A stretch of DNA of 62,929 nucleotides, counting the filler, from Reclinomonas americana ATCC 50394 (Eukaryota), in assembly GCA_048213135.1 (NCBI GenBank). It is 15 parts of 15 records of this genome, joined end to end, with 100 filler letters (N's around TTAATTAATTAA, not from the genome) between each part and the next. Parts side by side here need not be neighbours in the genome. Positions count along the whole stretch, not along the records: positions 37,250 to 40,905 come from AFZH01018147.1; positions 41,006 to 50,705 come from AFZH01018149.1; positions 50,806 to 52,350 come from AFZH01018150.1; positions 52,451 to 59,154 come from AFZH01018152.1; 11 more parts are not named here. The stretch is one strand, 5' to 3'. Position numbers and translations under genes: made by a program. Of this stretch, positions 36,037 to 61,304 are shown in pieces; positions within the stretch are counted from its first letter, which is position 1; every line of letters begins with the position of its first letter. The notes under the pieces were generated by a model. It was not told where the DNA came from. It saw nothing but the letters and a program-made list of their open reading frames with translations, and made no database searches.

Positions 36037-36329
36037 GACGGTTGGGGCCGGGGGAACACACTGGATGGGTATACTCTGTCGTCGTTACTCTCGATGGCCA
36101 GCACATCGTGAGTGGCAGTCGGGACGAGACGATCCGTGTGTGGTCCACTCCGCGTGGGCTGGCGGGGCAAGAGGTTGCGGCCGCACGCTCAGCCGTGCTG
36201 GCTGTCAACGAGCTGCTTGCCGAAGATGACTGTGACTGGATTCTCGTCGATGTTGTGCTGCGGTGTTTTGTGTTGGAGGATGCAGAGGTGATTGAACGCC
36301 GTGCGCCTGGATGGTGCTGGACGGAGTGA
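36037..36329 (+). pseudogene. 5'-truncated WD40 gene fragment (last blade + type-B tail)
   Basis: EHTGWVYSVVVTLDGQHIVSGSRDETIRVWSTPRG...VLRCFVLEDAEVIERRAPGWCWTE*. The upstream sequence is unrelated and CT-rich, with no MATK exon. Confidence 0.7.
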
Positions 36330-37249: not shown

Positions 37250-37609
37250 GCTGTTACTCCCAGCGGTCAGCATATTGTGAGTGGGAGCGAGGACAGCACC
37301 GTGCGGATGTGGTCTCTGGCAAGTGGCGGCGAGGAAGTACGAAAGTTGGAGCGACACACTGGATGGGTGTCGTCTGTGGCCGTCTCTCCCAATGGTCAGC
37401 ACATTGTGAGTGCGGGTGGCTACGACGAGACTGTGCGAGTGCGGTCCACGCCGCGTGGCCTTGCTGGCTTCGAACTCGACGCCGCGCGCTCGGCCATGCT
37501 GACTGTGCAGAAGATGCAGGAGGAGGAGGTAGATTCACGATGTCTTCCCGAGCTGGTTCTGCGCTGCTTTATCGTCGAGGATGCCGAGGTCGTCCTTTTC
37601 CGGTGCTGA
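37250..37609 (+). CDS. WD40 array gene, type-A tail (5' part in gap)
   Basis: The last two blades plus STPRGL...CLPELVLRCFIVEDAEVVLFRC*. Confidence 0.8.
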   Translation, partial: AVTPSGQHIVSGSEDSTVRMWSLASGGEEVRKLERHTGWVSSVAVSPNGQHIVSAGGYDETVRVRSTPRGLAGFELDAARSAMLTVQKMQEEEVDSRCLPELVLRCFIVEDAEVVLFRC

Positions 37610-39628: not shown

Positions 39629-40795
39629 ATGGCAACAAAGGTGTGAATGTGTGCGCGCTTTGCGTGGTTGGTGTCTGTGCATGCATTCGTGTGCTCGTGC
39701 GTGTGTGCGGTTGTTGTTGTTCTTTGTGTTTGTGCATGTGCGTCTCACCGCGAATGATTGACACAGATCATTCAGAGTCTCGCTTCTTCGGTGCGGTCCG
39801 TCGCTGTCACTCCCGACGGCAAGCACATTGTCGGTGGGTGCTTGGACAGCTCCGTTCGAGTGTGGTCTTTGGCGAGTGGAGAAGAAGTGCGACGGCTGGG
39901 GGGACACGCTGGCGAGGTGTTGTCTGTCGCCGCCACTCCCGATGGCCTGCACATTGTGAGTGGGGATGGAGACTGTAACGTGCGTGTGTGGTCGCTGGAG
40001 AGTGGCGAGGAGGTGCTGCGGCTGGAGGGACACACTGGATGGGTGATGTCTGTCGCCGTCACTCCCGATGGTCAGCACGTTGTGAGTGGGGATGGAGACA
40101 ACACAGTGCGAGTGTGGTCTCTGGCAAGTGGGGAAGAGCTGCGACGGCTGGAGGGACACACCGACATGGTGCGGTCTGTCGCCGTCACTTCTGATGGTCA
40201 CCACATTGTCAGTGGCGGTGAAGACAACACAGTGCGGGTATGGTTGCTGGCGAGCGGCGAAGAAGTGCGGCGGTTGGAGGGACACACTGACTGGGTGCAG
40301 TCTGTCGCTGTTTCTCCAGACGGTCAGCACATCGTGAGTGGCTGTATGGACAAAATGGTGAGAGTGTGGTCACTGACGAGTGGAGAAGAAGTGCGACGAC
40401 TAGAAGGACACACTGGATTGGTGTATTGCGTCACCGTCACTCCGGATTGTCAGCATATCGTGAGCGGGAGTGGAGACAACACAGTGCGGGTATGGTCTCT
40501 GGCGAGTGGCGAGGAAGAGCGACGATTGGAGGGTCATGACGGATGGGTATCGTGTGTGGCCGTCTCTTCCGATGGTCTCCACATTGTGAGTGCAGGTGGC
40601 TACGACGAGACCGTGCGAGTGTGGTCCACGCCGCGTGGCCTCGCTCGTCTCGAACTCGACGCCGCGCGCTCGGCCATGCAAGCTGTGCAGGAGATGCAGG
40701 AGGACGAGGAGGAAGTAGATTCTCGATGCCTTCCCGAGCTGGTTCTGCGCTGTTTCATCGTCGAGGATGCCGAGGTCGTCCTTTTCAGGTGCTGA
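39629..40795 (+). CDS. 7-blade WD40 protein, type-A tail
   Basis: Exon 1 is 39629-39640 (MATK). A GT-AG intron precedes exon 2 (39767-40795), which has seven 42-aa repeats. Confidence 0.9.
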
Positions 40796-42103
40796 GTCGG
40801 TGAGTCGAAGGGAGGGAAGGTGGCTGCTGGTGACTGGGAGTTGTTTTTCGTGTCTTTTGAGGGAGAGTGGGTGGTTGTGCGGGGTGCAGGTGGAGGAAGA
40901 GAAAANNNNNNNNNNNNNNNNNNNNNNNNNNNNNNNNNNNNNNNNNNNNTTAATTAATTAANNNNNNNNNNNNNNNNNNNNNNNNNNNNNNNNNNNNNNN
41001 NNNNNTCTCCTCCTTCCCTCCCACTCGCCTCATTCATGCAGGCTGCGCATGCTATGGAGAGCGTGGCTGGGTGGGTGTACACATGTGTGTCGTGATGTGC
41101 GACGGATGGCCTGGTCGGTGGATCGTTTTCAATCCCGGCTGGAAGTCGGAGCGGATCGATGATGTGCGCACCTTGGCTGCTGCTGTCTCTGTCGAGTGAT
41201 GATGCTGGTGGCCATGGAAGACTGCAGACGCGTGCTCGGCAATCTACTCATGGGTGGACACATGCGTGTCGTGTTTCCCGATGGCGCCGGCCTGGTCGGT
41301 GGATCGATTTCAATCCCGGCTGGCAAGTTGGAGCGGATCGATGATGTGCGCTTCTTGGTTGCTGCTGTCGCCGCCAAGTAATGATGGTGATGGCCATGGG
41401 AGACTGCAGACGCGCGCGTGGCCCGGTGCGTACGTGTTCTGCATCTGCGTTGAGGAGTAAGTTGGTGAGACTTGGAGATTGACTGACTCAATTCTGTGTG
41501 ACAGGCGTGCTGGCAAGGGATTGGCCACTGGCGTGCGAAGACACGTGGTTCTGTGCCTCACAGCACATGCATGAGACAATGCACCGACCGACTGTGAGTG
41601 TGATTGAAGGCGCGAGGCATTGATTGTGAGTTGGGAGAGAGGAGACGAGTCTCACGATACAGCTGCCTCGTCCATCGCTGTGCACGTGCTACTGTACTGG
41701 TCGCTCCTCTCCTGTTCCTTGTAAGACTCTTTCTTCATTGTCCCACCTCAACTTCGCTGTGGGTCGATCTAACGAGGTGTGAGGTTTCGATGTCTCAGTG
41801 CTCAATTGATTCTCGGGTGTGCCGTGGCATCAGCACACCAGGGCCACAGCTGCGCATCCAAGCAGCCGGACATGCCAGTCCTTGTTGAGAGAGAATGCAG
41901 GGCAGTAGAAAGAGAGTGTCGCTGGACATGCACGGTGCAGTGGAGCGCCACCTCGAGCCACCACCCTGCTTGTCCATTCTGCCGATTTCTCATCGACGAG
42001 TCCCATGTCGGTCATCGAAAGCCCACACGCATCATCGGAGTCACGTCGCCCACACTACCGCATGCTGTGTGGGGTACTGGCTGCAGCCTGGCGAGCGATG
42101 GAC

Positions 42104-42170
42104 GACGTCTCAGAGCAAGGCGGGAGAAGAAAGGCGGGAAACAGTGACAATCCCGAGCGAGCAAATCACA
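42104..42170 (+). promoter_or_regulatory. Conserved putative promoter block upstream of array genes (GCGGGAAA, E2F-like)
   Basis: gacgtctc.gagcaaggcg...gcgggaaac..tg.caatcc.gagcgagcaa precedes a (CA)n tract in 7 units (~39530, 42104, 45275, 48543, 53836, 57226, 60878). Function is inferred from position only. Confidence 0.45.
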
Positions 42171-42193
42171 CACACACATACACCACACGGAGA

Positions 42194-43360
42194 ATGGCAA
42201 CCAAGGTGTGAATGTATGCGCACTTTGCGTGGTTGGTGTCTGTGCGTGCATTCGCAGCGTGTGCTTGTGCTCGTGCATGTGCGGTTGTTGTTCTTTGTGT
42301 TTGTGCATGTGCGTCTCACCGCGAATGATCGACGCAGATCATTCAAAGTCTCGCGACTGTGGTGCGATCAGTCGCCGTCACTCCCGACGGCAAACACATT
42401 GTGGGTGGGTGCGAGGACAACACGATTCGAGTGTGGTCTCTGGCGAGTGGCAAGGAGGTGCGACGGCTGGAGGGACACGATGGCGGGGTGTTCCCTGTCG
42501 CCGTCACTCTTGATAGTCAGCTTATTGTCAGTGGGGGCGGAGACTGTACCGTGCGTGTGTGGTTGCTGGCGAGTGGCAAGGAGGTTCGACGATTTGAGGG
42601 GCACACCGACTCGGTGTTCTCTGTCGCCGTCACCCCCGATGGTCAGCACATCGTGAGTGGCGGTGAAGACAGCACCATCCGGGTGTGGTCGCTGGCGAAT
42701 GGGGAGGAGGTGCGACGGCTGCAGGGGCACACTGCAAGGGTGATGTCTGTGGCAGTCACCCCTGATGGTCAGCATGTGGTGAGTGGGAGCGAGGACAGCA
42801 CCGTGCGGGTGTGGTTGCTGGCGAGTGGCGAAGAAGTGCGGCGGTTGGAGGGACACACTTATTGGGTGAAGTCAGTCGCTGTTACTCCAGATGGACAGCA
42901 CATCGTGAGTGGGAATGGAGACCGCACCCTGCGAGTGTGGTCGTTGGAGAGTGGAGACCAAGTGCGACGTTTCGAGGGACACACTTCATGGGTGTGTTGT
43001 GTTACCGTCACTCCCGATGGTCAGCACATCGTGAGTGGGAGTGGAGACAGCACCATTCGGGTGTGGTCTCTGGAGAGTGGAGAGGAAGTGCGACGGTTGG
43101 AGGGACACACTGAATGGGTATCGTCTGTGGCCGTCTCTCCCGATGGTCTGCACATTGTCAGTGCGGGTGGCGACGACGAGACCGTGCGAGTGTGGTCCAC
43201 GCCGCGTGGCCTTGCTCGTCTCGAACTCGACGCCGCGCGCTCCACCATGCAGGCCGTGCAGGAGATGCAGGAGGAGGAAGTAGATTCACGGTGCCTTCCC
43301 GAGCTGGTTCTGCGCTGTTTCATCGTCGAGGATGCCGAGGTCGTTCTTTTCCGGTGCTGA
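42194..43360 (+). CDS. 7-blade WD40 protein, type-A tail
   Basis: Exon 1 is 42194-42205 (MATK); exon 2 is 42338-43360. Confidence 0.9.
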
Positions 43361-45381
43361 GTTGGTGAGTCGAAGGGAGGGAGAGTGGTGGCTGCTGGTG
43401 ATTGTGAGTTATTTCCGTGTCGTGCGAGGGAGAGTGGGTGATCGTGCGGGATGCAGGTGGGGGAAGAGAGGAAGGCAGAGATTGTTGTTTACGAGGAACT
43501 CTCCCGTGCTTGTTGCCCTGGCGTGAATGAGAGTGAGAGGTCGTGAAGCACGTCTCTCTCTGTATGCGTGTCTCATTCTCACCTCCATTTGTGTGTGCAA
43601 GTGCGATGAATAACTTGGGAGGCTGTTCTGTCTTTCTGTCTCTTTGTGTTGTCTGTTGTGCGTGCATCTTTCGTCGCCCATGTACGTGCCTCAGGAGAGC
43701 GAGTCGCCGTTGTCTGTTTCCCTCGCATCTTGTTTTGCGCACCTCCTTGGCACCGCTGTCCTCTGCTTCCCATTGTGCACGTGCGCCGGACATTCTGCTT
43801 CCGACTGCAAAGAATGCCTGTCTTTCAGCTCTCTTTTTCCTGCCTTCTGCAGAGTCTATCTCTTTCTCCGCCATCTCCCTGCCTTTGTGCGCTCATCTGC
43901 CTCCCCAGTCATCCGCCTCTTCTTCCCGCACAAGCTCGAGACTGAGCATGCTGGTCTGCTCATGATGCATCGATTGCCAGCGATTGCCAGTCCATCATGG
44001 TGAGCTTCCCGATGCCGAAGTGTGTGTGGTGGCATAACTGCATACAAACTCTGCTCTTTCTCTCCCTTGTAGGATGGTTGTGTGAGCGTCCCTTGGCTTG
44101 CCTCTTGACCAACCGCGTGTTGGCATCAGGTGCTGATCGGTGTGTTCGTCGTTGAGACAAAGCAGATTTCTCTCTCCTTCCTCTATTCCTTTTGCTCACA
44201 GCACACCGATATGCGACACCTTGGAAACACGTGCTCGTTGTTGTTCCATGACAATGACAGACGTGCTGTGCATCGCTCGTTACCGGCTGTCACCTCACTC
44301 ACTCGAATCCCACCATGCATGCACGTAGCAGGTGCGTGGCCTTGTTTGTCTTGATCTCTCTTTCTTCTTTCTCCCCCACTCACCTCATCCATGCAGACCG
44401 TGCATGTCATGGAATGCATGGCGAGGGGGATGTACACATGTGTGTCGTGATGTGCGATGGATGGCCTGGTCGGTTGATCGTTAACGTTTTCAGTCCCGGC
44501 TGGCAAGTCGGAGCGGATCGATGGTGTGCGGACCTTGGCTATTGCTGTCACTGCCGAGTGACAATGATGGTGGCCATGGGGAGACTGCTGATACGTGCAA
44601 GGCCAGCAACACATGGTGCGTGAGTGTTTTGCTCCTTCGTTGAGGAGCAAGTCGGCGAGACTTGGAGATTGACTGACTCAATTCTGTGTGACAGGCGTGC
44701 TGGCAAGTGACTGGCATGCGAAGACACGTGGTTCTGTGCCTCACAGTACATGCATGAGACGATGCACCGACCGACTGTGAGTGTGATTGAAGGCACGAGG
44801 CATTGACTGTGATCTGGGTGAAGGGGAGGCGAGTCCCATGACGCAGCTGCCTCGTCCACCGCTGAGCTGCTGTGCTGGTCGCTGCTCTCCTGTCTCTTAT
44901 GGCTCCTTTTCTTCATTGTCTCACCTCAACTTCGCTGTGGGCCGATCCGAGGAGGTGTGCGGTTTCGATGACTCGGTTCTCATTGGATTCTTGTGACAAC
45001 ATGAACAACAGGGCCACAGCTGCACATCCAAGCAGCCCGACAATCCAGTCCTCGTTGGCAGAGAATGCAGGCCAGTCAAAGGGAGTGTCGCTGGTCAGCA
45101 GCGCGATGCAGTGGAGCGCGACCTGGTGTCACCACCGCCTGCATGTCCATTCTGCCGACCTCGCATCGACGAGTCTCATGTCGGTCTTCGAAAGCCCACA
45201 CTCATCTTCAGATCCACGTCGCTCACACTGCCGGTTGCTGTTGATTGCTGGCTGCAGCGTGGCGAGGGATGGACGACGTCTCAGAGCAAGGCGGGAGAAA
45301 CAGGCGGGAAACAGTGACAATCCCGAGCGAGCAAATCACACACACACACACACACACACACAATCACACAACGCACGGAGA

Positions 45382-46542
45382 ATGGCAACCAAGGTGGGAA
45401 TGTGTGCGCACTTTGCGTGGTTGGTGTCTGTGCGTGCATTCGTGTGTTCCTGCGTGTGTGCGGTTGTTGTTCTGTGTCTTCGAATGTTGCTGTGTGTGTC
45501 TCACCGCGGGTGGTCGGCACAGATCATTAGTCTCGCGACTGCGGTGTGGTCCATTACCGTCACTCCCGACGGCAAGCACATTGTTGGTGGATGTGACGAC
45601 AGCACCGTTCGTGTGTGGTCTTTGGCGAGTGGAGAAGAAGTGCGACGGCTGGGGGGACACGCTGGCGAGGTGTTGTCTGTCGCCGTCACTCTCGATGGCC
45701 TGCACATTGTGAGTGGGAGCGGAGACCGTACCGTGCGTGTGTGGTCGATGGCGAGTGGGGAAGAGGTGCGACGGTTAGAGGGACACTCCCGGGAGGTGCG
45801 GTCAGTTGCCGTCACACCAGATGGCCAGCACGTTGTCAGCGGCAGCTACGATAACACAGTGAGAGTGTGGTCTCTGGCGAGTGGCAAGGAGGTGCGACGG
45901 ATGGAAGGACACGCTGGCTGGGTGCTCTCTGTAGCCGTCACCCCCGATAGTCAGCATATAGTGAGTGGGAGCGGGGACTGCACTGTGCTGGTGTGGTTGC
46001 TGGCGAGCGGAAAGGAGGTGCGACGGTTGGCGGGACACACTGGATGGGTGATGTCAGTCGCTGTTACTCCAGATGGTCAGCACATCGTAAGCGGGAGCGG
46101 GGACAACACAGTGCGGGTGTGGTCGCTGATGAGTGGAGACCAAGTGCGACAGTTGGAGGGACACACTGGTGCGGTGTGGTCTGTCGCTGTCACTCCCGAC
46201 GGCCAACAAGTCGTGAGCGGGAGCGGGGATGGCTCCATTCGGTTGTGGTCTCTGGCGAGTGGCGCGGAGGTGCGGCGGTTGGAGGGACACACTGGATGGG
46301 TGTCGTCTGTGGCCGTCTCTCCCGATGGTCTCCACATTGTGAGTTCGGGTGGCATTGACAATATCGTGCGAGTGTGGTCCACACCACGTGGCCTTGCTGG
46401 CTTCGAACTCGACGCCGCACGCTCGGCCCTGCGAGTGGTGCAGGAGATGCAGGAGGAAGAAGAAGATTCTCGATGCCTTCCCGAGCTGGTTCTGCGCTGC
46501 TTCATCGTCGAGGATGCCGAGGTCGTCCTTTTCCGGTGTTGA
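45382..46542 (+). CDS. 7-blade WD40 protein, type-A tail
   Basis: Exon 1 is 45382-45393 (MATK); exon 2 is 45523-46542. Confidence 0.9.
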   Translation: MATKVGMCAHFAWLVSVRAFVCSCVCAVVVLCLRMLLCVSHRGWSAQIISLATAVWSITVTPDGKHIVGGCDDSTVRVWSLASGEEVRRLGGHAGEVLSVAVTLDGLHIVSGSGDRTVRVWSMASGEEVRRLEGHSREVRSVAVTPDGQHVVSGSYDNTVRVWSLASGKEVRRMEGHAGWVLSVAVTPDSQHIVSGSGDCTVLVWLLASGKEVRRLAGHTGWVMSVAVTPDGQHIVSGSGDNTVRVWSLMSGDQVRQLEGHTGAVWSVAVTPDGQQVVSGSGDGSIRLWSLASGAEVRRLEGHTGWVSSVAVSPDGLHIVSSGGIDNIVRVWSTPRGLAGFELDAARSALRVVQEMQEEEEDSRCLPELVLRCFIVEDAEVVLFRC

Positions 46543-48761: not shown

Positions 48762-49892
48762 ATGGCAACCAAGGTGCGCTCGCACACACGCGTGTGAGGG
48801 ATGTGTGTGTGGCTGCTCTATATGTACCTGTCTCATCGTGTGACATAGGTCCTGCAGGGTCACACGCAGGCGGTGAAATGTGTCGCCGTCACCCCTGATA
48901 GTCAATTTATTGTGAGCGGCGACTATGCCGGGTCGGTGCGGGTGTGGTCGCTGGCGACTGGAGACGAAGTGCAACGGTTAGAGGGACACACTGACAAGGT
49001 GATGTCTGTCGCCGTCACTCCCGACGGCCAGCACATCGTAAGCGGCAGTTTTGACAGGACTATTCGCGTGTGGTCCTTGACAGGCAGAGTGGAAGTGAGA
49101 CGGTATGATGAAGCATTCGGAGGAGTGCTATCTGTCGCCGTCACTCCCGATGGTCGACACATCGTGAGTGGGAGTTACGATGGCATGGTATGCGTGTGGT
49201 CACTGGCGAGTGGCGAAGAAGTGCGCCAGTTGGCAAGATGTGCTGGTGCCGTGTGGTCCCTTGCTGTCACTTCCAACGGTCAGTATGTTGTGAGTGGGTG
49301 TTGGGATAACACAGTTCGAGTGTGGTCCTTCGCAAGTGGAGACGAGGTGCGCCGGTTGGAGGGCCACACTGGAATAGTGTGGTCTGTCGCCATCACGTTC
49401 GACGGTCAACACATTGTGAGCGGAGGTCGTGATATGACAGTGCGGGTGTGGTCACTCACGAGTGGAGAAGACCTGCGGCGTTTGGAGGGACACACTGACG
49501 TCGTGCTGTGTGTCGCCCTCACTCCTGATGGGCAGCACGTTGTGAGTGGGGGTATTGACAAGACAGTGCGCGTGTGGTCGCTGGTGAGTGGACAGCAGTT
49601 GCGACGGTTTGAGGGGCACACCGGTGCCGATTGGTCTGTCGTCGTTACTCCCGATGGCCAGCACATCGTGAGGGGGGGTGACGATGAGACGATCCGTGTG
49701 TGGTCTACGCCTCGCGGGCTGGCGCTGCATGAGCTTGCGGACGCACGATCAGCTGTGCTGGCCATCAGCGAGCTGCTTGCTGAAGAGGATGACTGCGACT
49801 GGATCTTGGTCGACGTTGTGCTGCGGTGTTTTGTGTTGGAGGATGCAGAGGTGATTGAAAGCCGTGCGCCTGGATGGTGCTGGTCGGAGTGA
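48762..49892 (+). CDS. 7-blade WD40 protein, type-B tail
   Basis: Exon 1 is 48762-48773 (MATK); exon 2 is 48849-49892 (VLQGHTQ...). The tail ends DCDWILVDVVLRCFVLEDAEVIESRAPGWCWSE*. Confidence 0.88.
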
Positions 49893-50806
49893 GCTGAATG
49901 AATACACGAAGACCGATTGCTGTCACTGTGTGCAACTCTGTCGTGTTAACCGCCACACTGCCTCACACGCGTACTTGCCAAGTGGAGGCAGCCGGAAAGC
50001 AGACACAGATCTGTAAAGTGGGATTGCAACAAGAGTATTCAGAGTACGAGGTTGAGATGAGACAATGAGATGAACAGACACGCGTATTGCTCGGCATTGA
50101 GCGAGTCCTCCCTCATCGACCCCACACACACGCCTTGTGCTTGTGCCCCCATGTCGCTTTGTCATTCAAACGCGGCGTGGATGCCAGCCTGTTGCTCTTG
50201 AAGCAGCGGCCAGTGGTGTCATTTCCGCCTCCCATTCTCACATTGGCACAGCATGAATATAGAGAGCTAACCAAGCGTCGATCCAGATGGCCACCCTTCT
50301 CGTTACACACGCCACGGGGAGGGAGTGCACTTGTCATGTGCACATATTTTTTGCACATGACAACTGGTGTGGCACACGCCACTCACGATCTGCGCTGCCT
50401 CGTTGCTCTCTTTCTGAATCGTGTATTCTCGCCCCTCCAACCGACTCTCGCGCGTGGCTCGGAGGGAGTTGATGCTCATGGCGTGTCGAGTTGAACAGGC
50501 TCGGCATGCATGCATTTGCCGCAACATCTCACTCACATTGCAGGTTGAGAAGGGAGCACCACGACGAGGACGCGGGGAGACAGGAGGCAGTGAGACACAG
50601 ACAGCACCACGAGGCGCACACGCGCAGTCGAGAGAGAAAGAGGTTGTTGATGTTCCGTCCGTCGGATGAATCAGAGTGCTTCACACACACACGCACACAC
50701 ACACANNNNNNNNNNNNNNNNNNNNNNNNNNNNNNNNNNNNNNNNNNNNTTAATTAATTAANNNNNNNNNNNNNNNNNNNNNNNNNNNNNNNNNNNNNNN
50801 NNNNNG

Positions 50807-50810
<4 letters not shown>

Positions 50811-50898
<88 letters not shown>
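50811..50898. repeat. (CA)n microsatellite upstream of a WD40 start codon
   Basis: Pure dinucleotide run. Similar (CT)n/(TG)n runs lie at 58944-59061, 59367-59487 and 60943-60992. Confidence 0.95.
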
Positions 50899-50900
<2 letters not shown>

Positions 50901-50924
50901 CACCACCACCACCACACACGGAGA

Positions 50925-52104
50925 ATGGCAACGAAGGTGTGAATGTGTGCGCACCTTTGCGTGGTCGGTGTCTGTGCGTGCATTCGTGTGCTTGTGCATC
51001 GTGTGCGGTTGTTGTTTGTGTGCTTGTGTGTGCGTGTCTTCGAGTGTTGCTGCTGTACATGCGTCTCATCGCGAGTGGTCGGCACAGATCATTCAGAGTC
51101 GCGCTTCTTCGGTGCGATCAGTCACCTGTACTCCCGACGGCAAGCACATTGTCGGTGGATGTATGGATAAGACAGTGCGAATGTGGTCACTGGCGAGTGG
51201 CGAAGAAGTGCGACGGCTGGTGGGACACACTGGTGGTGTGTTGTCTGTCGCCGTCACCCCTGATGGCCAACATATCGTGAGTGGAGGTGGAGACAACACC
51301 CTACGTGTGTGGTCGCTGGCGAACGGGGAGGAGGTGCTGCGGCTGGAGGGACACACTGGATGGGTGTATTGTGTCGCCGTCACCCCTGATGGCCAGCACA
51401 TTGTCAGCTGCAGCTACGATAACACAGTGAGTGTGTGGTCGCTGGCAAGTGGAGAGGAGGTGCGACGGCTGGAGGGACACACCGATGTGGTGTTTTCTGT
51501 CGCCGTTACTCCCGATGGCCAGCAGATAGTGAGTGGAGGTGGAGACAACACCCTACGTGTGTGGTTGCTGGAGAGTGGGATGGAGGTGCGACGGCTGGAA
51601 GGACACACTGACTGGGTGTGGTCTGTCACCGTCACCCCCGATGGTCAACACGTTGTTAGTGGAAGTGCGGATCGCACCGTGCGGATGTGGTCTCTGGCAA
51701 GTGGCAAGGAGGTGCGACGGTTGGAGGGACACACTGGTGCGGTGTGGCCTGTCGCCGTCTCTCCGGATGGTCAGCACATCGTGAGTGGGAGCGGGGACAG
51801 CTCCATTCGGGTGTGGTCTCTGGAGAGTGGAGAGGAGGTGCGACGGTTGGATGGTCACACTGGATGGGTGTCATCTGTGGCCGTCTCTCCCGATGGTCTC
51901 CACATTGTGAGTGGGGGTGGAGACAGCACCGTGCGAGTGTGGTCAACGCCGCGTGGCCTTGCTCGTTTCGAACTCGACGCTGCGCGCTTGGCCATGCGAG
52001 CTGTGCAGGAGATGCAGGAAGAAGAAGATTCAAGATGTCTTCCAGAGCTGGTTCTGCGCTGCTTCATCGTCGAGGATGCCGAGGTCGTCTCTTTCCGGTG
52101 CTGA
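50925..52104 (+). CDS. 7-blade WD40 protein, type-A tail
   Basis: Exon 1 is 50925-50936 (MATK); exon 2 is 51088-52104. Confidence 0.9.
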
Positions 52105-52192
52105 GTTGGTGAGTCGAAGGGAGGGAAGGTGGCTGCTGGTGATCGTGAGTTTTTTTTCGTGTCTTGCGAGGGAGAATGGGTGGTTGTGCATG

Positions 52193-52350
52193 CACTGGAT
52201 GGGTGTCGTCTGTGGCCGTCTCTCCCGATGGTCTCCACATTGTGAGTGCGGGTGGCATTGACGGGACGATACGAGTGTGGTCCACGTCGCGCGGCCTTGC
52301 TCGCTTCGAACTCGACGCCGCGCGCTTGGCCATGCAGGCTGTGCAGGAGA
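52193..52350 (+). pseudogene. Extra last-blade + tail WD40 fragment directly behind a complete gene (cut by gap)
   Basis: 88 nt after the stop at 52104, the spacer switches to TGWVSSVAVSPDGLHIVSAGGIDGTIRVWSTSRGLARFELDAARLAMQAVQE. This differs in sequence from the preceding gene's last blade. Confidence 0.65.
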
Positions 52351-53921
52351 NNNNNNNNNNNNNNNNNNNNNNNNNNNNNNNNNNNNNNNNNNNNTTAATT
52401 AATTAANNNNNNNNNNNNNNNNNNNNNNNNNNNNNNNNNNNNNNNNNNNNCTTCTCTCCCTTGCAGGATGGTTGTGTGAGCGTCCCTTGGCTTGCTTCTT
52501 GACAAACGCGTGTTGGTATCAGGTGCTGATCGGTGTGTTTGTCAGTGAGACAGAGCAGATTTCTCTCCCCGTCCTCCATTCCTTTGCTCACAGCACACCG
52601 GCATGCAGAGACCATGGAAAGCATGTCGTGGTGATGACAGGCATGATGTGCATTGCCCGTTGCCTGTTGCCTCACTCACTCGGCTCCCCACTCGCATCCC
52701 ACCATGCACTCAGCAGTTCTGTGGCCCTGTACTTCGTGATCTCTCTTTCCTCCTTCCCTCCCACTCACCTCAATTATGCAGGTCGTGCACGTCATGGAGA
52801 GCGTGGCGTGATGGGTGTACACATGTGTGTCGTGATGTGCGACATGGTGGCCTGGTCGGTGGATCGTTTTCAATCCGGCTGGCGAGTCGGAGCGGATCAA
52901 TGATGTGCGCACGTTGGTTGCTGCTGTCACTGTCAAGTGATGATGTTGGTGGCCATGGAAGACTGCAGACGCGTGCTCGGCAATCTACCCATCGTGCGTG
53001 CACATGCGTGTCGTGTTTCCCGATGGGTGGCCTGGTCGGTGGATCGTTCTCGATCCCGGTTGGCAAGTCAGAGCGGATCGATGATGTGCGCTTCTTGGTT
53101 GCTGCCAGGTAATGATACTGGTGGCCATGGGAGACTGCAGACGCGCGCGTGGCGTGGTGCGTACGTGTTCTGCATCTGCGTTGAGGAGTAAGTTGGCGGG
53201 ACTTGAAGATTGACTGACTCAGTTTTGTGCTGGCAAGTGACTCGTCACTGGCATGCGAAGACACGTGGTTCCGTGCCACACAGTGCATGCATGAGACAAT
53301 GCACCGACCGACTGTGAGTGTGATTGAAGGCACGAGGCATTGATTGTGACTTGGGTGAGAGGAGGCGAGCCTCACAACGTTAACACAGCTGCCACTTCAT
53401 CGCTGAGCGGCTGTGCTGGTCGCTCCTCTCCTGTCCCCTGTGACTCTCCTTCTTCGTCGTACCATCATCGTGCCCTCGTCAGCTTCGCTGTGGGCCGATC
53501 CAAGGAGGCTTGAGGTTTCGAAGACCCGCTGCCCATTGGATTCTCGAGTGTGCTGTGCTGTGGCTTCAGCACAGCTGGACCACAGCTGCATATATATATA
53601 TATATATATATGCAAGCAGCCCGACATTCCAATCCTCGTTGGCAGAGAATGCTGGCCGGTCTCGATGTAATGGAGCGCCAACCTCGTGTCACCACCACCA
53701 CCTTGCATGTCCATTCTGCCCATAACGCGAGTCCCATGTCGGTCTTCGAAAGCTCACGCGCATCATCGGAACCGCATCGCTCACACACACCGCATGATGC
53801 GTGGGGTGCTGGTTGCAGCCTGGCGAGGGATGGACGACGTCTCAGAGCAAGGCGGGAGAAGAAAGGCGGGAAACGATGACAATCCTGAGCGAGCAAATCA
53901 CAAACACACACACCACGGAGA

Positions 53922-55096
53922 ATGACAACCAAGGTGTGAATGTGTGCGCACTTTTGCGTGGTTGGTGTATGCGCGTGCATCCGTGTGCTTTAGCATCGTG
54001 TGCGGTTGTTGTTCTTGTGTTGTTATGTTGTCTTTGATTGCTACTGCGTGCGTCTCACTGCGAGTGATCGGCACAGATTATTCAGAGTCCCGCTGCAGTG
54101 CGGTCCGTCACTGTCACTCCCGACGGCAAGCACATTGTCGGTGGGTGCTTGAACAGTACCGTTCGAGTGTGGTCTTTGGCAAGTGGCAAGGAGGTGCGAC
54201 GGCTGGAGGGACACGCTGGCGCGGTGTTCTCTGTCGCCGTCACCCCCAATGGCCAGCAGATAGTGAGTGGGTGTGGAGACTGTACCGTGCGTGTGTGGTC
54301 GCTGGAGAGTGGCGAGGAGGTGCGACGGTTGACGGGTCACTCCCGGGAGGTGTGGTCAGTCGCCGTCACGCCTGATTGTCAGCACGTTGTCAGCGGTGGC
54401 TACGATCAGACAGTGCGAGTGTGGTCACTGGCGAGTGGCGAGGAGGTGCGACGGATTGAAGGACACGCCAACATGGTGTGGTCAGTCGCCGTCACCCCAG
54501 ATGGTCAACACATTTTCAGTGGCGGTGAAGACAACACAGTGCGGTTGTGGTTGCTGGCGAGTGGGGAAGAGGTGCGACGGTTGGCGGGACACACTGGATG
54601 GGTATACGCTGTCGCCGTCACCCCTGATGGACAGCGCATCGTGAGTGGGAGCGGGGACTGCACCGTGCGAGTGTGGTCAGTTACGAGCGGGGAGGAGGTG
54701 AGACGGTTGGAGGGACACACTGCATTTGTACAATCGATCGCCGTCTCTCCCAGCGGTCAGCATATTGTGAGTGGGAGCGAGGACAGCACCATTCGGGTGT
54801 GGTCTTTGGCGAGTGGCGAGGAAGTGCGACGGTTGGAGGGACACACTGGATGGGTGTCATCTGTGGCCGTCTCTCCCGATGGTCAGCACATTGTAAGTGC
54901 GGGTGGCCAAGATAAGACCGTGAGAGTGTGGTCGACGCCGCGTGGCCTTGCTCGCCTCGAACTCGACGCCGCACGCTTGGCCATGTGGGCTGTGCAGGAG
55001 ATGCTGGAGGAGGAAGTAGATTCACGATGCCTTCCCGAGCTGGTTCTGCGCTGTTTCATCGTCGAGGATGCCGAGGTCGTCTGTTTCCGATGCTGA
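53922..55096 (+). CDS. 7-blade WD40 protein, type-A tail
   Basis: Exon 1 is 53922-53933 (MTTK); exon 2 is 54077-55096. Confidence 0.9.
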
Positions 55097-57296
55097 GAAG
55101 GTGAGTTGAGAGAGGGAAGGTGGCTGCTGGTTATTGTGAGTTGTTGTTCGTGACCTGCGAGGGAGAGTGGGTGATCATGCGGGATGCAGGTGGGGGAAGA
55201 GAGATGACAGACGAGAGGAGAGAAGTCGACGTGGATGATGCAGAATTGTTCTCTGTGCTTGTTGCCCTTTCATGTGAATGGGAGTGTGCGGTCGTGAAGC
55301 ATGTCTCCCTCTGCATGCTTGCCTCTTTCTCACCTCCATTTGTGTATGCGAGCGAGATGAATCAATTGGAGTCTGTGATTTCTTTTCCCCTCGTTGTGAT
55401 GTCTGTTGTGCGTGCATCTTTTGTCGCTGATATACGTGCCTCAGGAGAGCGAATCATCGATGATTGTTTCTTCGCGTCTTGCTTTGCGCACCTCCTTGGT
55501 GCCACTTTTCTTCCTCTCATTGTGCCTGTGCGCCGCGGACAGTCTCTTTCCGGCTCTGCAGGATGCATGTCATTCCGCTCTCGAGCCCTCCTTCTCTGTC
55601 CCTTGTAAAGTCTCTCTCTCTCTCTCTCTTTCTCCGCCGTCTCCCTCCTTTGTGCGCTTATCTGCTTCCCCAGCCATCCACCCCTCCTTGCCGCACAAGC
55701 TCGAGGCCGAACATGCTGGTCTGCTCACCGTGTTCCGACTGCCATCGATTGCCAGTCCATCATGGTGAGCATGTCGATGCCGAAGTGGCATGACTGCATG
55801 CTGACTCTGCTCTCTCTCTCTTTCTTTCTTTCTCTCTCTCTCTCTCGTAGGATGGATGTGTGTGCAGAACCGTCCGTCGCCTTGCCTCTTGACAAAACCG
55901 CGTGTTGATATCAGATGCTGATCGGTGTGTTTGTCGTTGAGACAGAGCAGATCTCTCTCTCCTTCCTCCATTCTTCGCTCACAGTGTACCGACATGCAGA
56001 CACCTTGGACACACGTTCTTGTCATCGGCCGTGACGATGGCAGACGTGCTGTGCATCGCCGGTTGTCGGCTATCGCCTCACTAATTCGAATCCCACCCTG
56101 CACGAAGCAGGTGTGTGGACTTGTTCGTCTTGATCACTCTCTCCTCCTTCCCTCCCACTCACCTCAATTATGCAAGCCGTGCACGTCATGGAGAGCGTGG
56201 CTGGGTGGATGTACACATGTGTGTCATGATGGCCTGGTCGGTGGATCGTTTCAATCCCGGCTGGCAAGTCGGAGCGAATCGATGATGTGCGCTCCTTGGT
56301 TGCTGCTGTCCCTGCCGAGTGATGATGCTGGTGGCCATGGAAGACTGCAGACGCGTGCTCGGCAATCTACCCATGGGTGGACACATGCGTGTCGTGTTTC
56401 CCGATGGGTGGCCTGGTCGGTGGATCGTTCTCGATCCCGGTTGGCAAGTCAGAGCGGATCGATGATGTGCGCTTCTTGGTTGCTGCTGTCGCCGCCAAGT
56501 AATGATGGTGATGGCCATGGGAGACTGCAGATGCGCGCGTGGCCTGGTGCGTACGTGTTCTGCATCTGCGTTGAGGAGTAAGTTGGTGAGACTTGGAGGT
56601 TGACTAACTCGATTCTGTGTGACAGGCGTGCTGGCAAGTGACTGGCATGCGAAGACACGTGGTTCCGTACCACACAGTGCCTGCGTGAGACGATTCACCG
56701 GCCGACTGTGAGTGTGATTGAAGGCATGAGGCATTGATTGTGACTTGAGTAAGAGGAGGCGAGTCTCATGACACAGCTGCCACTTCCATCGCTGAGCTGC
56801 TGTTCTGGTCGCTCCTCTCCTATTCCGCGTGGCTCTCGTTCTTCCTTGTACCATTATGGTGCCCTCATCAACCTCGCTGTGGGCCGATCCAAGGAGGTGA
56901 GGTGTCGCTGACTCGCTGCTCATTGGATTCTCGGGAATGCTATGGCATCAGCACAACAGGGCCACGGCTGCGTATCCATGCAGCCCGACATTCCAGTCCT
57001 CACCGTTGATGAAGAATGCTGGTAAGTCGAAAGAGAGTGTCGCTGGACAGCAGCACGGTGCAGCGGAGCACCACCTCGAGCCACCACCCTTGTCCATTCT
57101 GCCTGTTTCCCATCGACAAGTCCCATGTCGGTCTTCAAAAGCCCACACGCATTAACGAAGCCACATTGCTCTCATACTGCTGTATGTTGTGTGGGGTGCT
57201 GGCTGCAGCCTGGCGAGGGATGCGGGACGTCTCGGAGCAAGGCGGGAAACGGTGACAATCCCGAGCGAGCAAATCACACACACACACACTAGGAGA

Positions 57297-58480
57297 ATGG
57301 CAACAAAGGTGTGAATGTGTGCGCACTTTTTGCGTGGTTGGTGTCTGTGCGTGCATTCGTGTGCTTGTGTATCGTGTTGCGGTTGTTGTTTGTGTGCCTG
57401 TGTGTCCGTGGCTTCCAATGTTGCAATGTGTGCCCGTCTCACCGCGAGTGATCGACACAGATCATTCAGAGTCTCGATGTGGTGAGGTCTATCGCCGTCA
57501 CTCCCGACGGCAAGCACATTGTGGGTGGATGTGAGGACAGCACCGTCCGAGTGTGGTCGCTGGCGAGTGGCAAGGAGGTGCGACGGCTGGAGGGGCATGG
57601 AGGTTCTGTGTACTCCGTCGCCGTCACTCCCGATGGCCAACTTATCGTGAGTGGAAGTGGAGACTGTACCGTACGTGTGTGGTCGCTGGCGAGTGGAGAA
57701 GAAGTGCGACGGCTGGAGGGGCACGCCGATGCGGTGATGTCAGTCGCCGTCACCCCCGATGGCCAGCACATCGTGAGTGGGGGCGGGGGCAGCCCCGTGC
57801 GAGTATGGTCGCTGGCGAGTGGAGAGGAGGTGCGACGGCTAGAGGCACACAGTGGATGGATATACTCTGTCGCTGTCACTCCGGATAATCTGCACGTAGT
57901 GAGCGGGAATGGAGAATTTATAGTTAGATTGTGGTCGCTGGCGAATGGCGAGGAGGTGCGACGGCTCGAGGGACACACGGATATGCTTTACTCTGTCTCC
58001 GCCACCCCCGATGGTCAACACGTTGTCAGTGGCAGCTATGATGACACAGTGAGAGTGTGGTCGCTGGCGAGCGGGGAGGAGGTTCGACGGCTGGAAGGAC
58101 ACACTGCATGGGTGTCGTCTGTGGCCGTCACTTCGGATGGTCAGTACGTCGTGAGTGGGAGTGGAGACAGCACCGTGCGGATGTGGTCTCTGGAGAGTGG
58201 AGAGGAAGTGCGACGATTGGAGGAACATGAAGGATGGATATCGTCCGTGGCCGTCTCTCCTGATGGCCAGCACATTGTGAGTGCCGGTGGCCAAGATAAG
58301 ACCGTGCGAGTGTGGTCCACACCGCGTGGCCTTGCTCACCTCGAACTCGACGCCGCGCGCTCGGCCATGCAGACTGTGCAAGAGATGCAGGAGGAAGAAG
58401 TAGATTCTCGATGCCTTCCCGAGCTGGTTCTGCGCTGTTTCATCGTCGAGGATGCCGAGGTCGTCATTTTTCGGTGCTGA
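57297..58480 (+). CDS. 7-blade WD40 protein, type-A tail
   Basis: Exon 1 is 57297-57308 (MATK); exon 2 is 57461-58480. Confidence 0.9.
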
Positions 58481-58987: not shown

Positions 58988-59062
<75 letters not shown>

Positions 59063-59365
59063 GTGTCGTCGTCGTCTTCGTCTCGTCTCGTCTCCGTCTC
59101 GTCTCGTCTCTCTCCTCGTCTCTCGTCTCTCGTCGCACGTCGTACGTCGTACTCNNNNNNNNNNNNNNNNNNNNNNNNNNNNNNNNNNNNNNNNNNNNTT
59201 AATTAATTAANNNNNNNNNNNNNNNNNNNNNNNNNNNNNNNNNNNNNNNNNNNNTCCCGTTCCCGTACCCGTCCGTTACCGTTACGTCGTACGTCGTAGT
59301 CGTCGTCGCCGCCGACCGACTACTTACCTTCCTTCCTTCCGTTCGTACGTACGTACGTCGTCGTC

Positions 59366-59491
<126 letters not shown>

Positions 59492-60941: not shown

Positions 60942-60995
<54 letters not shown>

Positions 60996-61304
60996 CGAGA
61001 ACGACAACGAGGTGTAGTAGTGCGCGCGTCTTACGTTTGGTCGGTTGGTTGGTGTCGTGTCGTACGTACTGTTCGTTNNNNNNNNNNNNNNNNNNNNNNN
61101 NNNNNNNNNNNNNNNNNNNNNTTAATTAATTAANNNNNNNNNNNNNNNNNNNNNNNNNNNNNNNNNNNNNNNNNNNNTCGGCGAATCGATGCATCGATGG
61201 TCCGTCGGATGAATCAGACTCCCCTTACCTACCTATACCCCCCTCTCTCTCCTTCCCTCCGCCCCCCTCCCCCCCTCCCCCTTCCCCTCTCTCCCCCCCT
61301 CCCC

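What the first reader, a model, noticed from the sequence alone, without database searches (positions are those of the whole stretch)
39767..58330. Variation concentrated at a few blade positions, with blade motifs shuffled between genes and positions
Seen: the scaffold GH-xxx-V-x-SVAVTPDGQHIVSG-xx-D-x-TVRVWSLASGEEVRRLE is nearly constant, while the x positions vary widely (TGW/AGE/TDM/SRE/TYW; L/M/R/Q/Y/W/F/K; SG/GE/CM/SY/DG; N/C/K/R/S). GHAGEVLS is shared by genes 39629 and 45382, and GHSREV by 45382 and 53922. GCMDK is in blade 5 of gene 39629 but blade 1 of gene 50925. Known: these positions map to the top binding face of WD40 propellers. Inference: concerted evolution plus diversifying selection.
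Basis: partly seen in the sequence, partly recalled or inferred. Interest (0 to 1): 0.75.

Follow-up and report, generated by a model that had tools for sequence, protein, structure and literature searches.

The report
Tandem WD40 propeller genes, variable top face
A eukaryotic genome piece carries a row of at least eight sister genes for small seven-bladed WD40 propellers whose frame is held constant while a few residues on one face differ from copy to copy, a pattern already known from other repetitive WD40 proteins.

Summary
Eight complete genes hold 56 blades built on one 42-residue scaffold. Amino-acid entropy peaks at blade positions 7, 25, 5, 23, then 4, 3 and 22. All lie in the d-a loop, the start of strand a or the b-c turn, which form one face and include the published top-face hotspots.

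- **No blade-level concerted evolution.** Blades group by position, not by gene. Gene-wise clades are rejected in 6 of 6 genes, and same-gene and different-gene blade pairs are equally alike.
- **Shared motifs.** Two of the three cited motifs are same-position orthologues. GCMDK matches only at the amino-acid level. Motif sharing across positions is not above chance.
- **In-register mosaicism.** What does exist is mosaicism between neighbouring paralogues (PHI P<=0.001), with synonymous divergence highest in blades 3-5.
- **Selection.** Scaffold omega is 0.18. The seven variable positions together give 1.19 (not significantly above 1). Positions 5/7/23/25 give 1.52 (p=0.0035) and position 7 gives 2.4. 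M2a beats M1a (p=0.0017 with per-blade trees).

This is a new variant of a known kind: stand-alone propellers with an orphan tail that diversify by gene birth-and-death.

The parts
36057..36329 (+). Fragment of a subtype-B family member: last blade plus C-terminal tail, ending ...GWCWTE and a stop
   Evidence: tblastn with gene 2 matches residues 257-336 at 59% identity. Translation shown.
37250..37609 (+). Partial subtype-A copy cut by a contig start: end of blade 6, blade 7, tail and stop. The otherwise invariant Trp of the last blade reads Arg (VRVRSTPRG).
   Evidence: tblastn matches residues 224-340 at 84% identity. Translation shown.
39629..40795 (+). Gene 1 (subtype A): exon 1 39629-39640 (MATK), intron 39641-39766, exon 2 39767-40795 (7 blades plus tail, TGA stop)
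42194..43360 (+). Gene 2 (subtype A): exon 1 42194-42205, exon 2 42338-43360. Its exon-2 product was used for the structure model.
45382..46542 (+). Gene 3 (subtype A): exon 1 45382-45393, exon 2 45523-46542
48762..49892 (+). Gene 4 (subtype B, divergent tail ...DWILVDVVLRCFVLEDAEVIE...): exon 1 48762-48773, exon 2 48849-49892
50925..52104 (+). Gene 5 (subtype A): exon 1 50925-50936, exon 2 51088-52104. It lies on its own short contig, 50806-52350.
53922..55096 (+). Gene 6 (subtype A): exon 1 53922-53933 (MTTK), exon 2 54077-55096
57297..58480 (+). Gene 7 (subtype A): exon 1 57297-57308, exon 2 57461-58480
61305..62445 (+). Gene 8 (subtype B): putative exon 1 61305-61316 (MTSK) followed by GC rather than GT, exon 2 61381-62445 (TAG stop). 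The 5' end is less certain than in the other genes.
43361..45381 (.). Example of the ~2.0 kb spacer that belongs to the repeat unit. The whole spacer recurs between the other genes at 74-82% identity (84-86% over two short ~100-nt pieces cut by contig ends).
   Evidence: blastn of this spacer against the window

Best explanation
The region is a tandem array of at least 8 complete and 2 partial paralogous genes. The repeat unit is about 3.2 kb. Each gene has a 4-codon first exon (MATK), one short intron and a second exon.

The product is about 346 aa: a stand-alone seven-bladed WD40 beta-propeller followed by a family-specific tail of about 55 aa, predicted to form two helices.

Shown:
- The blades of one gene are 62-65% identical because a consensus-like scaffold, including the bottom-face loops, is under strong purifying selection (omega about 0.18).
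- Seven positions per blade, all on the top face, evolve at or above the neutral rate.
- The seven-blade layout predates the gene duplications, and blades remain positional orthologues.
- The genes diverged by birth-and-death and exchange segments in register with their neighbours. The unit's flanks and gene ends stay more alike than blades 3-5.

Inferred:
- The paralogues form a repertoire of binding modules. Their top faces, above all the R1 residue (position 7) of blades 3-5, recognise different ligands.
- The constant scaffold and tail connect each propeller to a shared partner or assembly.
For: Architecture:
- Pfam finds 7 WD40 stretches per protein, E 1e-72 to 1e-76.
- The AF2 model has pLDDT 88.8 and 27 strands in 7 blades.
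- Foldseek TM scores are 0.81/0.95 to PkwA 5yzv and 0.80 to WDR5.
- The ATG, the donor and the YCAG acceptor are conserved: GT donor in 7 of 8 genes, GC in gene 8.

Positional orthology:
- The nearest neighbour on scaffold codons is a same-position blade in another gene for 36 of 56 blades, a blade of the same gene for 0, and another blade for 20.
- Codon identity among same-residue cells is 0.312 at the baseline, 0.569/0.570 for different positions and 0.697 for the same position.
- Position clades for blades 2-6 are not rejected (AU p 0.46-0.71). Gene clades are rejected for 6 of 6 genes.

Mosaicism:
- PHI gives P<=0.001 on 180 informative sites and P=0.037 on third positions. The closest gene pair changes from blade to blade.
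- The gene tree is star-like, with UFboot 43-56.
- The 4-fold p-distance is 0.22-0.26 in blades 1, 2, 6 and 7, 0.17 in the tail and 0.38-0.45 in blades 3-5. Intron and near flanks are at 0.14-0.18.

Selection:
- Searches give the model tests.
- 11 of the 13 sites with posterior above 0.5 for the omega>1 class are top-face variable positions.
- In a null simulation, 0 of 8 replicates reached the observed LRT.
- pN is 0.251 in top loops, 0.095 in bottom loops and 0.110 in strands.
- All 56 blades have distinct seven-residue signatures.
Against: - As a class the seven variable positions have omega 1.19, not distinguishable from 1 (p=0.15).
- Simple counting gives only 1.43 at position 7 and 1.23 for positions 5/7/23/25.
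- The codon-model code is my own. It was applied to only 6 sequences that recombine, and it was checked by only 8 simulated replicates.
- No ligand, partner, expression or splicing evidence exists: no RNA run held the stretch.
- The tail is modelled at low confidence (pLDDT 36-63) and has no known family.
- The window is a chain of draft contigs. Chimeric assembly of 80%-identical units could imitate mosaicism.
- Some long identical tracts join blades at different positions (42 nt in g1b3/g8b5; 37 nt in g5b2/g5b4 across the b-c loop). A low level of out-of-register exchange is therefore not excluded.
Confidence: 0.6

Rival explanations
1. Blades are kept alike by ongoing concerted evolution (gene conversion or unequal crossing-over among blades within and between genes). 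This also moves blade motifs to new positions, while diversifying selection keeps the top-face codons different.
For: - The variable positions are the same as in HNWD repeats (my equivalence, from passages of PMC1805685).
- Blades at different positions still share codons well above the codon-usage baseline (0.57 against 0.31).
- Under a naive independent-sites null, identical out-of-register tracts are longer than expected: maximum 42 nt against a 95th percentile of 35, and 6 pairs of >=30 nt against 0.55 expected.
- g5b2 and g5b4 share a 37-nt tract that includes the b-c loop.
Against: - Same-gene and different-gene blade pairs are equally similar: 0.692 against 0.693 nt identity, MWU p=0.81, and 0.570 against 0.569 codon identity.
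- Gene-wise clades are rejected in 6 of 6 genes, and position clades are never rejected.
- Mean nt identity between blade positions is 67%, with a maximum of 84%.
- Blade number is 7 in 8 of 8 genes.
- Motif sharing across positions is at the chance level.
- With a null that allows for each pair's overall similarity, the tract excess vanishes (P 0.29-0.48).
Confidence: 0.08
2. Ordinary tandem duplicates with relaxed constraint. The variable positions are simply unconstrained surface-loop residues drifting at the neutral rate on a very stable consensus-like propeller. There is no adaptive diversification and no repertoire function.
For: - The omega of the seven-position class is 1.19, not different from 1.
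- NG86 pN at these positions (0.388) equals scaffold pS (0.387) for same-position pairs.
- Hu et al. 2017 describe variable hotspot sites as a general feature of highly repetitive WD40 proteins (section 11 of PMC5587647).
- Recombination is known to inflate site-model tests.
Against: - M2a still beats M1a when each blade has its own tree (LRT 12.7, p=0.0017).
- For the four positions named in advance from the Podospora work, omega is 1.52 (p=0.0035). For R1 alone it is 2.42 (p=0.0006).
- At position 7, blades 3-6 carry 5, 6, 5 and 5 different residues among 6 paralogues.
- Bottom-face loops, equally exposed, have pN 0.095.
- The canonical binding hotspots are the most variable sites, which pure relaxation does not predict.
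Confidence: 0.27
3. Assembly artefact. The mosaic relationships, and the uneven divergence along the unit, come from chimeric or collapsed assembly of near-repeats in a fragmented draft, not from biology.
For: - The window is a chain of contigs joined by 44 N + TTAATTAATTAA + 44 N linkers: 14 joints in all, 5 of them within 40.9-61.2 kb.
- Gene 5 sits alone on a 1.5-kb contig.
- Units are 74-82% identical.
Against: - Three complete genes (2, 3 and 4) and their spacers lie on one uninterrupted 9.7-kb contig, and genes 6 and 7 on another.
- The units are about 20% diverged, and the longest identical run between same-position blades is 43 nt, which gives assemblers few places to switch copies.
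- All 8 reading frames and splice signals are intact.
- The variable-position pattern does not depend on the mosaic question.
Confidence: 0.05

Closest known systems
HNWD / NWD NACHT-WD40 genes of Podospora anserina (het-d, het-e, het-r family; Paoletti et al. 2007, PMC1805685, passages read)
   Same: - Blades are unusually alike.
- Variability and omega above 1 are concentrated at the two residues flanking the conserved Val at the start of strand a and the two flanking the conserved Asp of the b-c turn. Their codons 7/9 and 25/27 correspond to positions 5/7 and 23/25 here; this equivalence is my inference.
- These residues lie on the interaction face.
- It is a multigene family.
   Different: - There is no NACHT or HET domain here; the first exon is 4 codons.
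- Blade number is fixed at 7.
- Blades are 67% rather than up to 100% identical at the DNA level.
- Blades keep positional orthology instead of being exchanged among positions and loci.
- Diversification is by gene duplication plus in-register recombination.
- A C-terminal helical tail is present.
Highly-Repetitive / Moderately-Repetitive WD40 proteins (Hu et al. 2017, PMC5587647) and the Nostoc 'highly repetitive propeller' 2YMU with its designed derivatives (Tako8, WRAP-T)
   Same: - 2ymu is the best sequence match among solved structures (E 1.2e-160), followed by Tako8, WRAP-T and PkwA.
- The scaffold is consensus-like with a complete Asp-His-Ser/Thr-Trp tetrad.
- Conservation is high except at the predicted hotspot sites, as that paper reports for HR repeats.
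   Different: - Internal identity is 0.62-0.65, below their 0.7 cut-off, so this falls in the moderately repetitive class by my measure.
- This is a single 7-blade domain rather than many repeats.
- It is a eukaryotic, intron-bearing, tandemly arrayed gene family with an orphan tail.
Stand-alone seven-bladed WD40 adaptors such as WDR5
   Same: Size and fold agree (Foldseek TM 0.79-0.80, 32% identity). The top-face hotspot positions are the ones these proteins use to bind peptides (Wu et al. 2012, passages).
   Different: WDR5-type proteins are single-copy and conserved, with blades that differ strongly from each other. Here many paralogues carry near-uniform blades and differing top faces.

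Membership tests
WD40 repeat beta-propeller (Pfam PF00400) | Repeated WD40 units detected by the family profile above its cut-off | tested here: met
   7 stretches in each of the 3 proteins tested, 237-248 bits against a cut-off of 27
WD40 repeat beta-propeller (Pfam PF00400) | Asp-His-Ser/Thr-Trp tetrad residues at the expected blade positions | tested here: met
   His2 in 48/56, Ser20 in 49/56, Asp24 in 52/56 and Trp30 in 56/56 blades. Tetrad definition from PMC3419727.
WD40 repeat beta-propeller (Pfam PF00400) | Closed propeller of four-stranded blades | tested here: met
   AF2 model with pLDDT 88.8 and 27 strands. TM 0.95 (target-normalised) to 5yzv and 7big. This is a prediction, not an experiment.
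Highly-Repetitive WD40 (Hu et al. 2017) | Internal repeat sequence identity of at least 0.7 | tested here: not met
   Mean within-gene blade identity is 0.62-0.65 (subtype A) and 0.53-0.54 (subtype B). Blades 2-6 alone give 0.68-0.72 in subtype A (0.53-0.56 in subtype B). My measure is a plain pairwise mean and may differ from theirs. The value meets their 0.4 cut-off for 'moderately repetitive'.
Highly-Repetitive WD40 (Hu et al. 2017) | Conserved repeats with diversity concentrated at predicted hotspot sites | tested here: met
   Entropy peaks at positions 7, 25, 5 and 23. R1, R1-2 and D-1 correspond to positions 7, 5 and 23.
HNWD/NWD-type NLR WD repeats (Paoletti et al. 2007) | N-terminal NACHT (with or without HET) domain on the same protein | tested here: not met
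   Pfam finds only WD40-type families. The inferred first exon has 4 codons. The spacer is conserved non-coding-like DNA. This rests on a gene model without RNA support.
HNWD/NWD-type NLR WD repeats (Paoletti et al. 2007) | Repeats nearly identical at the DNA level and exchanged among positions and loci (concerted evolution) | tested here: not met
   Mean nt identity between positions is 0.673, maximum 0.841. Blades group by position, and gene-wise clades are rejected for 6 of 6 genes.
HNWD/NWD-type NLR WD repeats (Paoletti et al. 2007) | Variable repeat number between genes or alleles | tested here: not met
   7 blades in 8 of 8 complete genes. Alleles could not be examined.
HNWD/NWD-type NLR WD repeats (Paoletti et al. 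2007) | Positive selection at the four codons flanking the conserved Val and Asp | tested here: met
   Omega is 1.52 for positions 5/7/23/25, LRT 8.5, p=0.0035. The counting estimate is 1.23. Own code, 6 sequences.

The most novel reading that the evidence does not exclude
The array is a germline repertoire of recognition propellers in a protist, a WD40 counterpart of diversified receptor families. Specificity would sit on the top face of blades 3-5. Those blades are kept apart by selection: their synonymous sites are about twice as diverged as the introns, near flanks and the other blades. Meanwhile the rest of each unit is repeatedly homogenised in register, and a constant orphan tail plugs every variant into one shared effector. 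This would be convergent with fungal NLR WD40 sensors, but without a NACHT domain and without blade shuffling.
Probability: 0.2. Interest if true: 0.65.

Novelty: new variant of a known kind. Interest (0 to 1): 0.45.

Why it matters
Near-uniform WD40 blades with variable top-face residues are known from fungal NLR sensors and from bacterial repetitive propellers. In those cases they are tied to blade shuffling or to very recent blade amplification.

This locus shows the same site pattern in a different setting. The genes are small and stand-alone, they sit in a tandem array, and their blades are positional orthologues with substantial synonymous divergence. The uniform scaffold can therefore be held by purifying selection alone, while the binding face changes.

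If the paralogues bind different ligands, the family would be a compact natural library of propeller binders on one very regular scaffold. That would interest both the study of protist recognition systems and protein design. The tail has almost no relatives among 1.84 billion representative proteins, so the family is essentially undescribed.

Tried and rejected
- **Kinetoplastid-type intronless genes.** I considered this at first. I dropped it because 4 of 6 subtype-A frames are closed just upstream of blade 1, while a conserved ATG-GCA-ACC-AAG|GT ... CAG| structure fits a phase-0 intron.
- **N-terminal hydrophobic segment in gene 3** (read-through of the intron). Rejected for the same reason.
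- **Whole-genome search.** No genome is held for this window.
- **Earlier findings of this scan.** None for this genome.
- **Full-length homologue search.** Only generic WD40 proteins, at most 59% identity and covering the propeller only.
- **Tail-region word search.** 46 candidates, none scoring.
- **Tail against Pfam.** 0 families for 2 of 2 tails.
- **Tail against the ESM Atlas.** Best score 0.76, below the useful range.
- **Naming the two real tail relatives.** I did not repeat it.
- **Organism.** The HBS1-like neighbour gives only 55-59% identity to animals and chytrid fungi. The lineage stays unresolved.
- **Expression and splicing.** No RNA holder was listed, and 0 reads were laid from 4 of 4 runs of the same species label. 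This is no test.
- **Out-of-register conversion tracts.** Significant under an independent-sites null but not under a null matched to each pair's similarity. Left as inconclusive.
- **Literature search** for tandem stand-alone WD40 arrays under selection (terms 'WD40', 'tandemly duplicated', 'positive selection', 'propeller', 'paralogs'). The 12 papers listed, of the 34 that matched, were read as titles and abstract openings only, and none described such a family.
Face mapping therefore rests on the DSSP string and strand topology, not on measured solvent exposure.

Full report
**What is there**

The window is a chain of draft contigs joined by 44 N + TTAATTAATTAA + 44 N linkers. From about 36 kb to its end, the + strand carries a tandem family of WD40 genes. 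There are eight complete ORFs, plus a last-blade-and-tail fragment at 36057-36329 and a copy cut by a contig start at 37250-37609.

Genes 2, 3 and 4 with their spacers lie on one uninterrupted 9.7-kb contig, and genes 6 and 7 on another. The tandem arrangement is therefore real at least there.

The ~2.0 kb spacer recurs between genes at 74-82% identity, giving a repeat unit of about 3.2 kb. Six genes (1, 2, 3, 5, 6, 7; subtype A) are 77-80% identical in protein. Genes 4 and 8 (subtype B) are about 59-60% identical to them and have a different tail.

**Gene model**

In 4 of 6 subtype-A genes the WD40 frame is closed by a stop a few codons before blade 1, and the first in-frame Met is only in blade 3 or later. 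Upstream, all subtype-A genes share ATG-GCA-ACC-AAG followed by GTG(T/G)GAAT. After 126-152 nt comes (C/T)(A/G)CAG, then ATC/ATT-ATT in the WD40 frame.

Gene 4 has the same layout with a 75-nt intron. Gene 8 has MTSK followed by GC instead of GT.

I therefore read each gene as a 4-codon first exon, one phase-0 intron and one large exon. The product is about 346 aa and starts MATK-IIQSL. This is inference from sequence. No RNA run held the stretch, and four runs laid on it gave 0 reads, which is no test.

The neighbouring HBS1-like gene (28754-29500, minus strand) matches animals and chytrid fungi at only 55-59% identity. The organism is a eukaryote that I could not place.

**The observation**

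Each gene has seven blades, and 48 of the 56 blades are exactly 42 aa.

| Blade position | Entropy over 56 blades (bits) | Location in the blade |
|---|---|---|
| 7 | 3.26 | second residue of strand a |
| 25 | 3.13 | b-c turn |
| 5 | 3.01 | d-a loop |
| 23 | 3.00 | b-c turn |
| 4 | 2.43 | d-a loop |
| 3 | 2.09 | d-a loop |
| 22 | 1.87 | last residue of strand b |

Most scaffold positions are below 1.3 bits, and Trp30 is invariant. Positions 36, 42 and 33 (2.2-1.95 bits) are also fairly variable.

Scaffold identity between subtype-A blades is 0.73, against 0.23 at the seven variable positions. All 56 seven-residue signatures are different.

**Which face**

The AlphaFold model of gene 2 has pLDDT 88.8 and pTM 0.83, with the propeller at about 96. 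It places strands at blade positions 6-11 (a), 17-22 (b), 26-31 (c) and 37-42 (d).

Positions 3-5 are thus in the d-a loop, 7 is the second residue of strand a, 22 ends strand b, and 23 and 25 are in the b-c turn. In an up-down four-stranded sheet, the d-a and b-c connections lie at one end and the a-b and c-d connections at the other. All seven positions are therefore on one face.

Wu et al. 2012 (PMC3419727, passages) define the top-face hotspots as R1 in the pattern (V/L/I)-R1-R2-(V/L/I), R1-2, and D-1 before the tetrad Asp. Here these are positions 7, 5 and 23.

Between same-position blades, pN is 0.251 in the top loops, 0.095 in the bottom loops and 0.110 in the strands. The model matches PkwA (5yzv), designed WRAP-T propellers, 2ymu and WDR5. 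By sequence the closest solved protein is the Nostoc 'highly repetitive propeller' 2ymu.

**Are the blades kept alike by concerted evolution? No**

Synonymous sites are far from homogenised. Scaffold pS is 0.39 between same-position blades of different genes and 0.52 between blades at different positions. It is the same whether the two blades are in one gene (0.525) or in two (0.520).

| Comparison among cells with the same residue | Codon identity |
|---|---|
| Different columns (codon-usage baseline) | 0.312 |
| Same column, different position, different gene | 0.569 |
| Same column, different position, same gene | 0.570 |
| Same column, same position | 0.697 |

The blades do share DNA ancestry. 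That ancestry predates the gene duplications, and nothing has homogenised a gene's own blades since.

On a tree of the 42 subtype-A blades (scaffold codons only), blade position needs 13 changes against 29.2 in shuffles (minimum 24 of 300). Gene of origin needs 33 against 27.8. Holding each of positions 2-6 as a clade is not rejected (AU p 0.46-0.71). Holding the seven blades of any one gene together is rejected for 6 of 6 genes (p<=5.5e-4, lnL loss 96-142).

No blade has its nearest neighbour in its own gene (0 of 56), and 36 of 56 have it at the same position of another gene. Most of the other 20 involve the divergent subtype-B genes or the consensus-like blade g1b3.

**Are motifs shuffled? 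Not demonstrably**

- GHAGEVLS (g1b2/g3b2) and GHSREV (g3b3/g6b3) are same-position orthologues with long identical DNA.
- GCMDK (g1b5/g5b1) differs at 3 of 5 synonymous third positions.
- Sharing of variable residues between different positions is at chance level.
- Long identical out-of-register tracts exist: 42 nt in g1b3/g8b5, 38 nt in g2b1/g3b3, and 37 nt in g5b2/g5b4, the last including the b-c loop.
- These tracts exceed a naive null (0 of 400 simulations). They do not exceed a null matched to each pair's overall similarity (P 0.29-0.48).
- The most similar different-position pair (84%) is not an outlier.

Occasional out-of-register conversion is not excluded, but it is not a main force.

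**What does move: in-register exchange between paralogues**

The subtype-A gene tree is star-like, with support of 43-56. The closest gene pair changes from blade to blade: g1-g3 in blade 2, g3-g6 in blade 3, g1-g6 in blade 4, g2-g3 in blade 5, g2-g7 in blade 6. The PHI test gives P<=0.001 on 180 informative sites and P=0.037 on third positions.

Divergence is very uneven along the unit.

| Segment | p-distance | Measure |
|---|---|---|
| Blades 1, 2, 6, 7 | 0.22-0.26 | 4-fold sites |
| Tail | 0.17 | 4-fold sites |
| Blades 3, 4, 5 | 0.38-0.45 | 4-fold sites |
| Intron | 0.15 | all sites |
| 200 nt upstream | 0.14 | all sites |
| 110 nt downstream | 0.18 | all sites |

The whole spacer differs by about 18-26% between units. 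Silent sites of the three central blades are thus roughly twice as diverged as the rest of the unit.

I read this as partial homogenisation of flanks and gene ends, with the central blades escaping it. A higher local mutation rate, blurred orthology of the central blades, or assembly chimeras are alternatives I could not exclude.

**Selection**

I wrote a GY94/F3x4 likelihood program and applied it to the 335 gap-free codons of the six subtype-A genes.

| Test | Result |
|---|---|
| M1a vs M2a, one tree | lnL -4016.59 vs -4003.70; LRT 25.8, p=2.5e-6; omega2 5.5 on 3.3% of codons |
| M1a vs M2a, one tree per blade | lnL -3853.17 vs -3846.82; LRT 12.7, p=0.0017; omega2 3.7 on 4.3% of codons |
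| Null simulation, branch lengths fixed | null LRTs 0-0.97 in 8 replicates; observed 11.1 |
| Fixed sites: scaffold | omega 0.18 |
| Fixed sites: all seven variable positions | omega 1.19; p=0.15 against 1 |
| Fixed sites: positions 5/7/23/25, named in advance | omega 1.52; LRT 8.5, p=0.0035 |
| Fixed sites: position 7 alone | omega 2.42; p=0.0006 |

The per-blade trees were used because the genes recombine. Under that model, 11 of the 13 sites with posterior above 0.5 for the omega>1 class are top-face variable positions. They include position 7 of blades 3, 4 and 5, and the other two are in the tail.

By position, omega is 0.80 (3), 1.07 (4), 1.21 (5), 2.45 (7), 0.55 (22), 1.14 (23) and 1.51 (25). 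Plain counting is milder: 1.43 at position 7 and 1.23 for the four positions.

The scaffold is under strong purifying selection. The top-face positions are at least neutral, and a few, above all R1 in the central blades, probably change faster than neutral. The evidence is moderate. It rests on six recombining sequences, my own code and few simulations.

**Relatives**

A profile of the eight tails was searched against 1.84 billion representative proteins and found three hits.
- A 116-aa fragment, 66% identical to the last blade plus tail of gene 2.
- A 394-aa protein that aligns end to end with gene 8 at 28% identity. It has the same tail motif (VLRCF-x-x-EDAEV) but ordinary, dissimilar blades.
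- A spurious repeat protein.

The propeller-plus-tail architecture is therefore older than the uniform-blade subfamily seen here, and it is almost absent from public protein sets. The tail has no Pfam family and no Atlas lead, and a word search found nothing.

**Comparison with what is known**

Hu et al. 2017 (PMC5587647; abstract, section 11 and passages) already report that highly repetitive WD40 repeats are conserved except at predicted hotspot sites. By their 0.7 cut-off these genes (0.62-0.65) are only 'moderately repetitive'.

Paoletti et al. 2007 (PMC1805685, passages) found positive selection at codons 7, 9, 25 and 27 of Podospora NWD repeats. These flank the conserved codons 8 and 26. 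I equate them with positions 5, 7, 23 and 25 here, which flank Val6 and Asp24.

The Podospora repeats are up to 100% identical, vary in number, and are exchanged within and between loci on NACHT proteins. None of those features is met here (see the membership table).

The locus works like those systems at the level of which residues vary. [quoted passage not shown]

**Verdict**

The observed site pattern is real and lies on the binding face. 'Concerted evolution' and 'shuffling of blade motifs' are not supported at the blade level. In-register mosaicism between paralogues and a moderate signal of diversifying selection at the hotspot residues are supported.

I take the family to be a set of stand-alone binding propellers with differing top faces and a shared orphan tail. 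Its ligands and role are unknown.

Noticed in passing
window 3073-61177 (14 joints, e.g. 40906-41005, 50706-50805, 52351-52450, 59155-59254, 61078-61177): Every gap is 44 N + TTAATTAATTAA + 44 N, an artificial six-frame-stop linker. The window is a chain of draft contigs, and order and adjacency across the joints are not guaranteed.
   Followed up: partly
window 39767-58480, blades 3-5 of genes 1, 2, 3, 5, 6, 7: Silent (4-fold) divergence between paralogues is 0.38-0.45 in blades 3-5. It is 0.17-0.26 in the other blades and the tail, and 0.14-0.18 in the intron and near flanks. No explanation was settled: escape from homogenisation, local hypermutation, blurred orthology or assembly.
   Followed up: partly
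window 36057-62445: The two subtypes are interspersed in the order B(fragment), A(partial), A, A, A, B, A, A, A, B. This suggests a higher-order repeat of one B and three or four A units. Contig joints make the count uncertain.
   Followed up: no
window 37250-37609: The partial subtype-A copy reads Arg where the otherwise invariant Trp of the last blade should be (VRVRSTPRG), and ERH for EGH. It may be a decaying copy.
   Followed up: no
window 61305-61381: Gene 8's putative first exon (MTSK) is followed by GC, not GT. Either it has a GC-AG intron or its 5' end differs from the other genes.
   Followed up: no
window 41008-42188, 52452-53913, 55100-57289: In several spacers a segment of about 190 nt (spacer coordinates about 1068-1256 of unit 2) is present twice in tandem.
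   Followed up: no
window about 45330-45370, 50806-50900, 58990-59100, 59330-59400, 60960-61000: (CA)n/(TG)n and (CT)n microsatellites sit just upstream of the first exons and in the spacers. Their lengths differ between units.
   Followed up: no
window 28754-29500 (-): An exon of an HBS1-like translational GTPase (Pfam GTP_EFTU, E 9e-32). The best relatives are 55-59% identical, from animals and chytrid or mucoromycete fungi. GC and AT skew switch sign near 36 kb, where the WD40 array begins.
   Followed up: partly
window 32900-35800: Long CT-rich, low-complexity tandem repeats that translate into Ser/Leu/Phe/Cys-rich pseudo-ORFs lie just upstream of the array.
   Followed up: no
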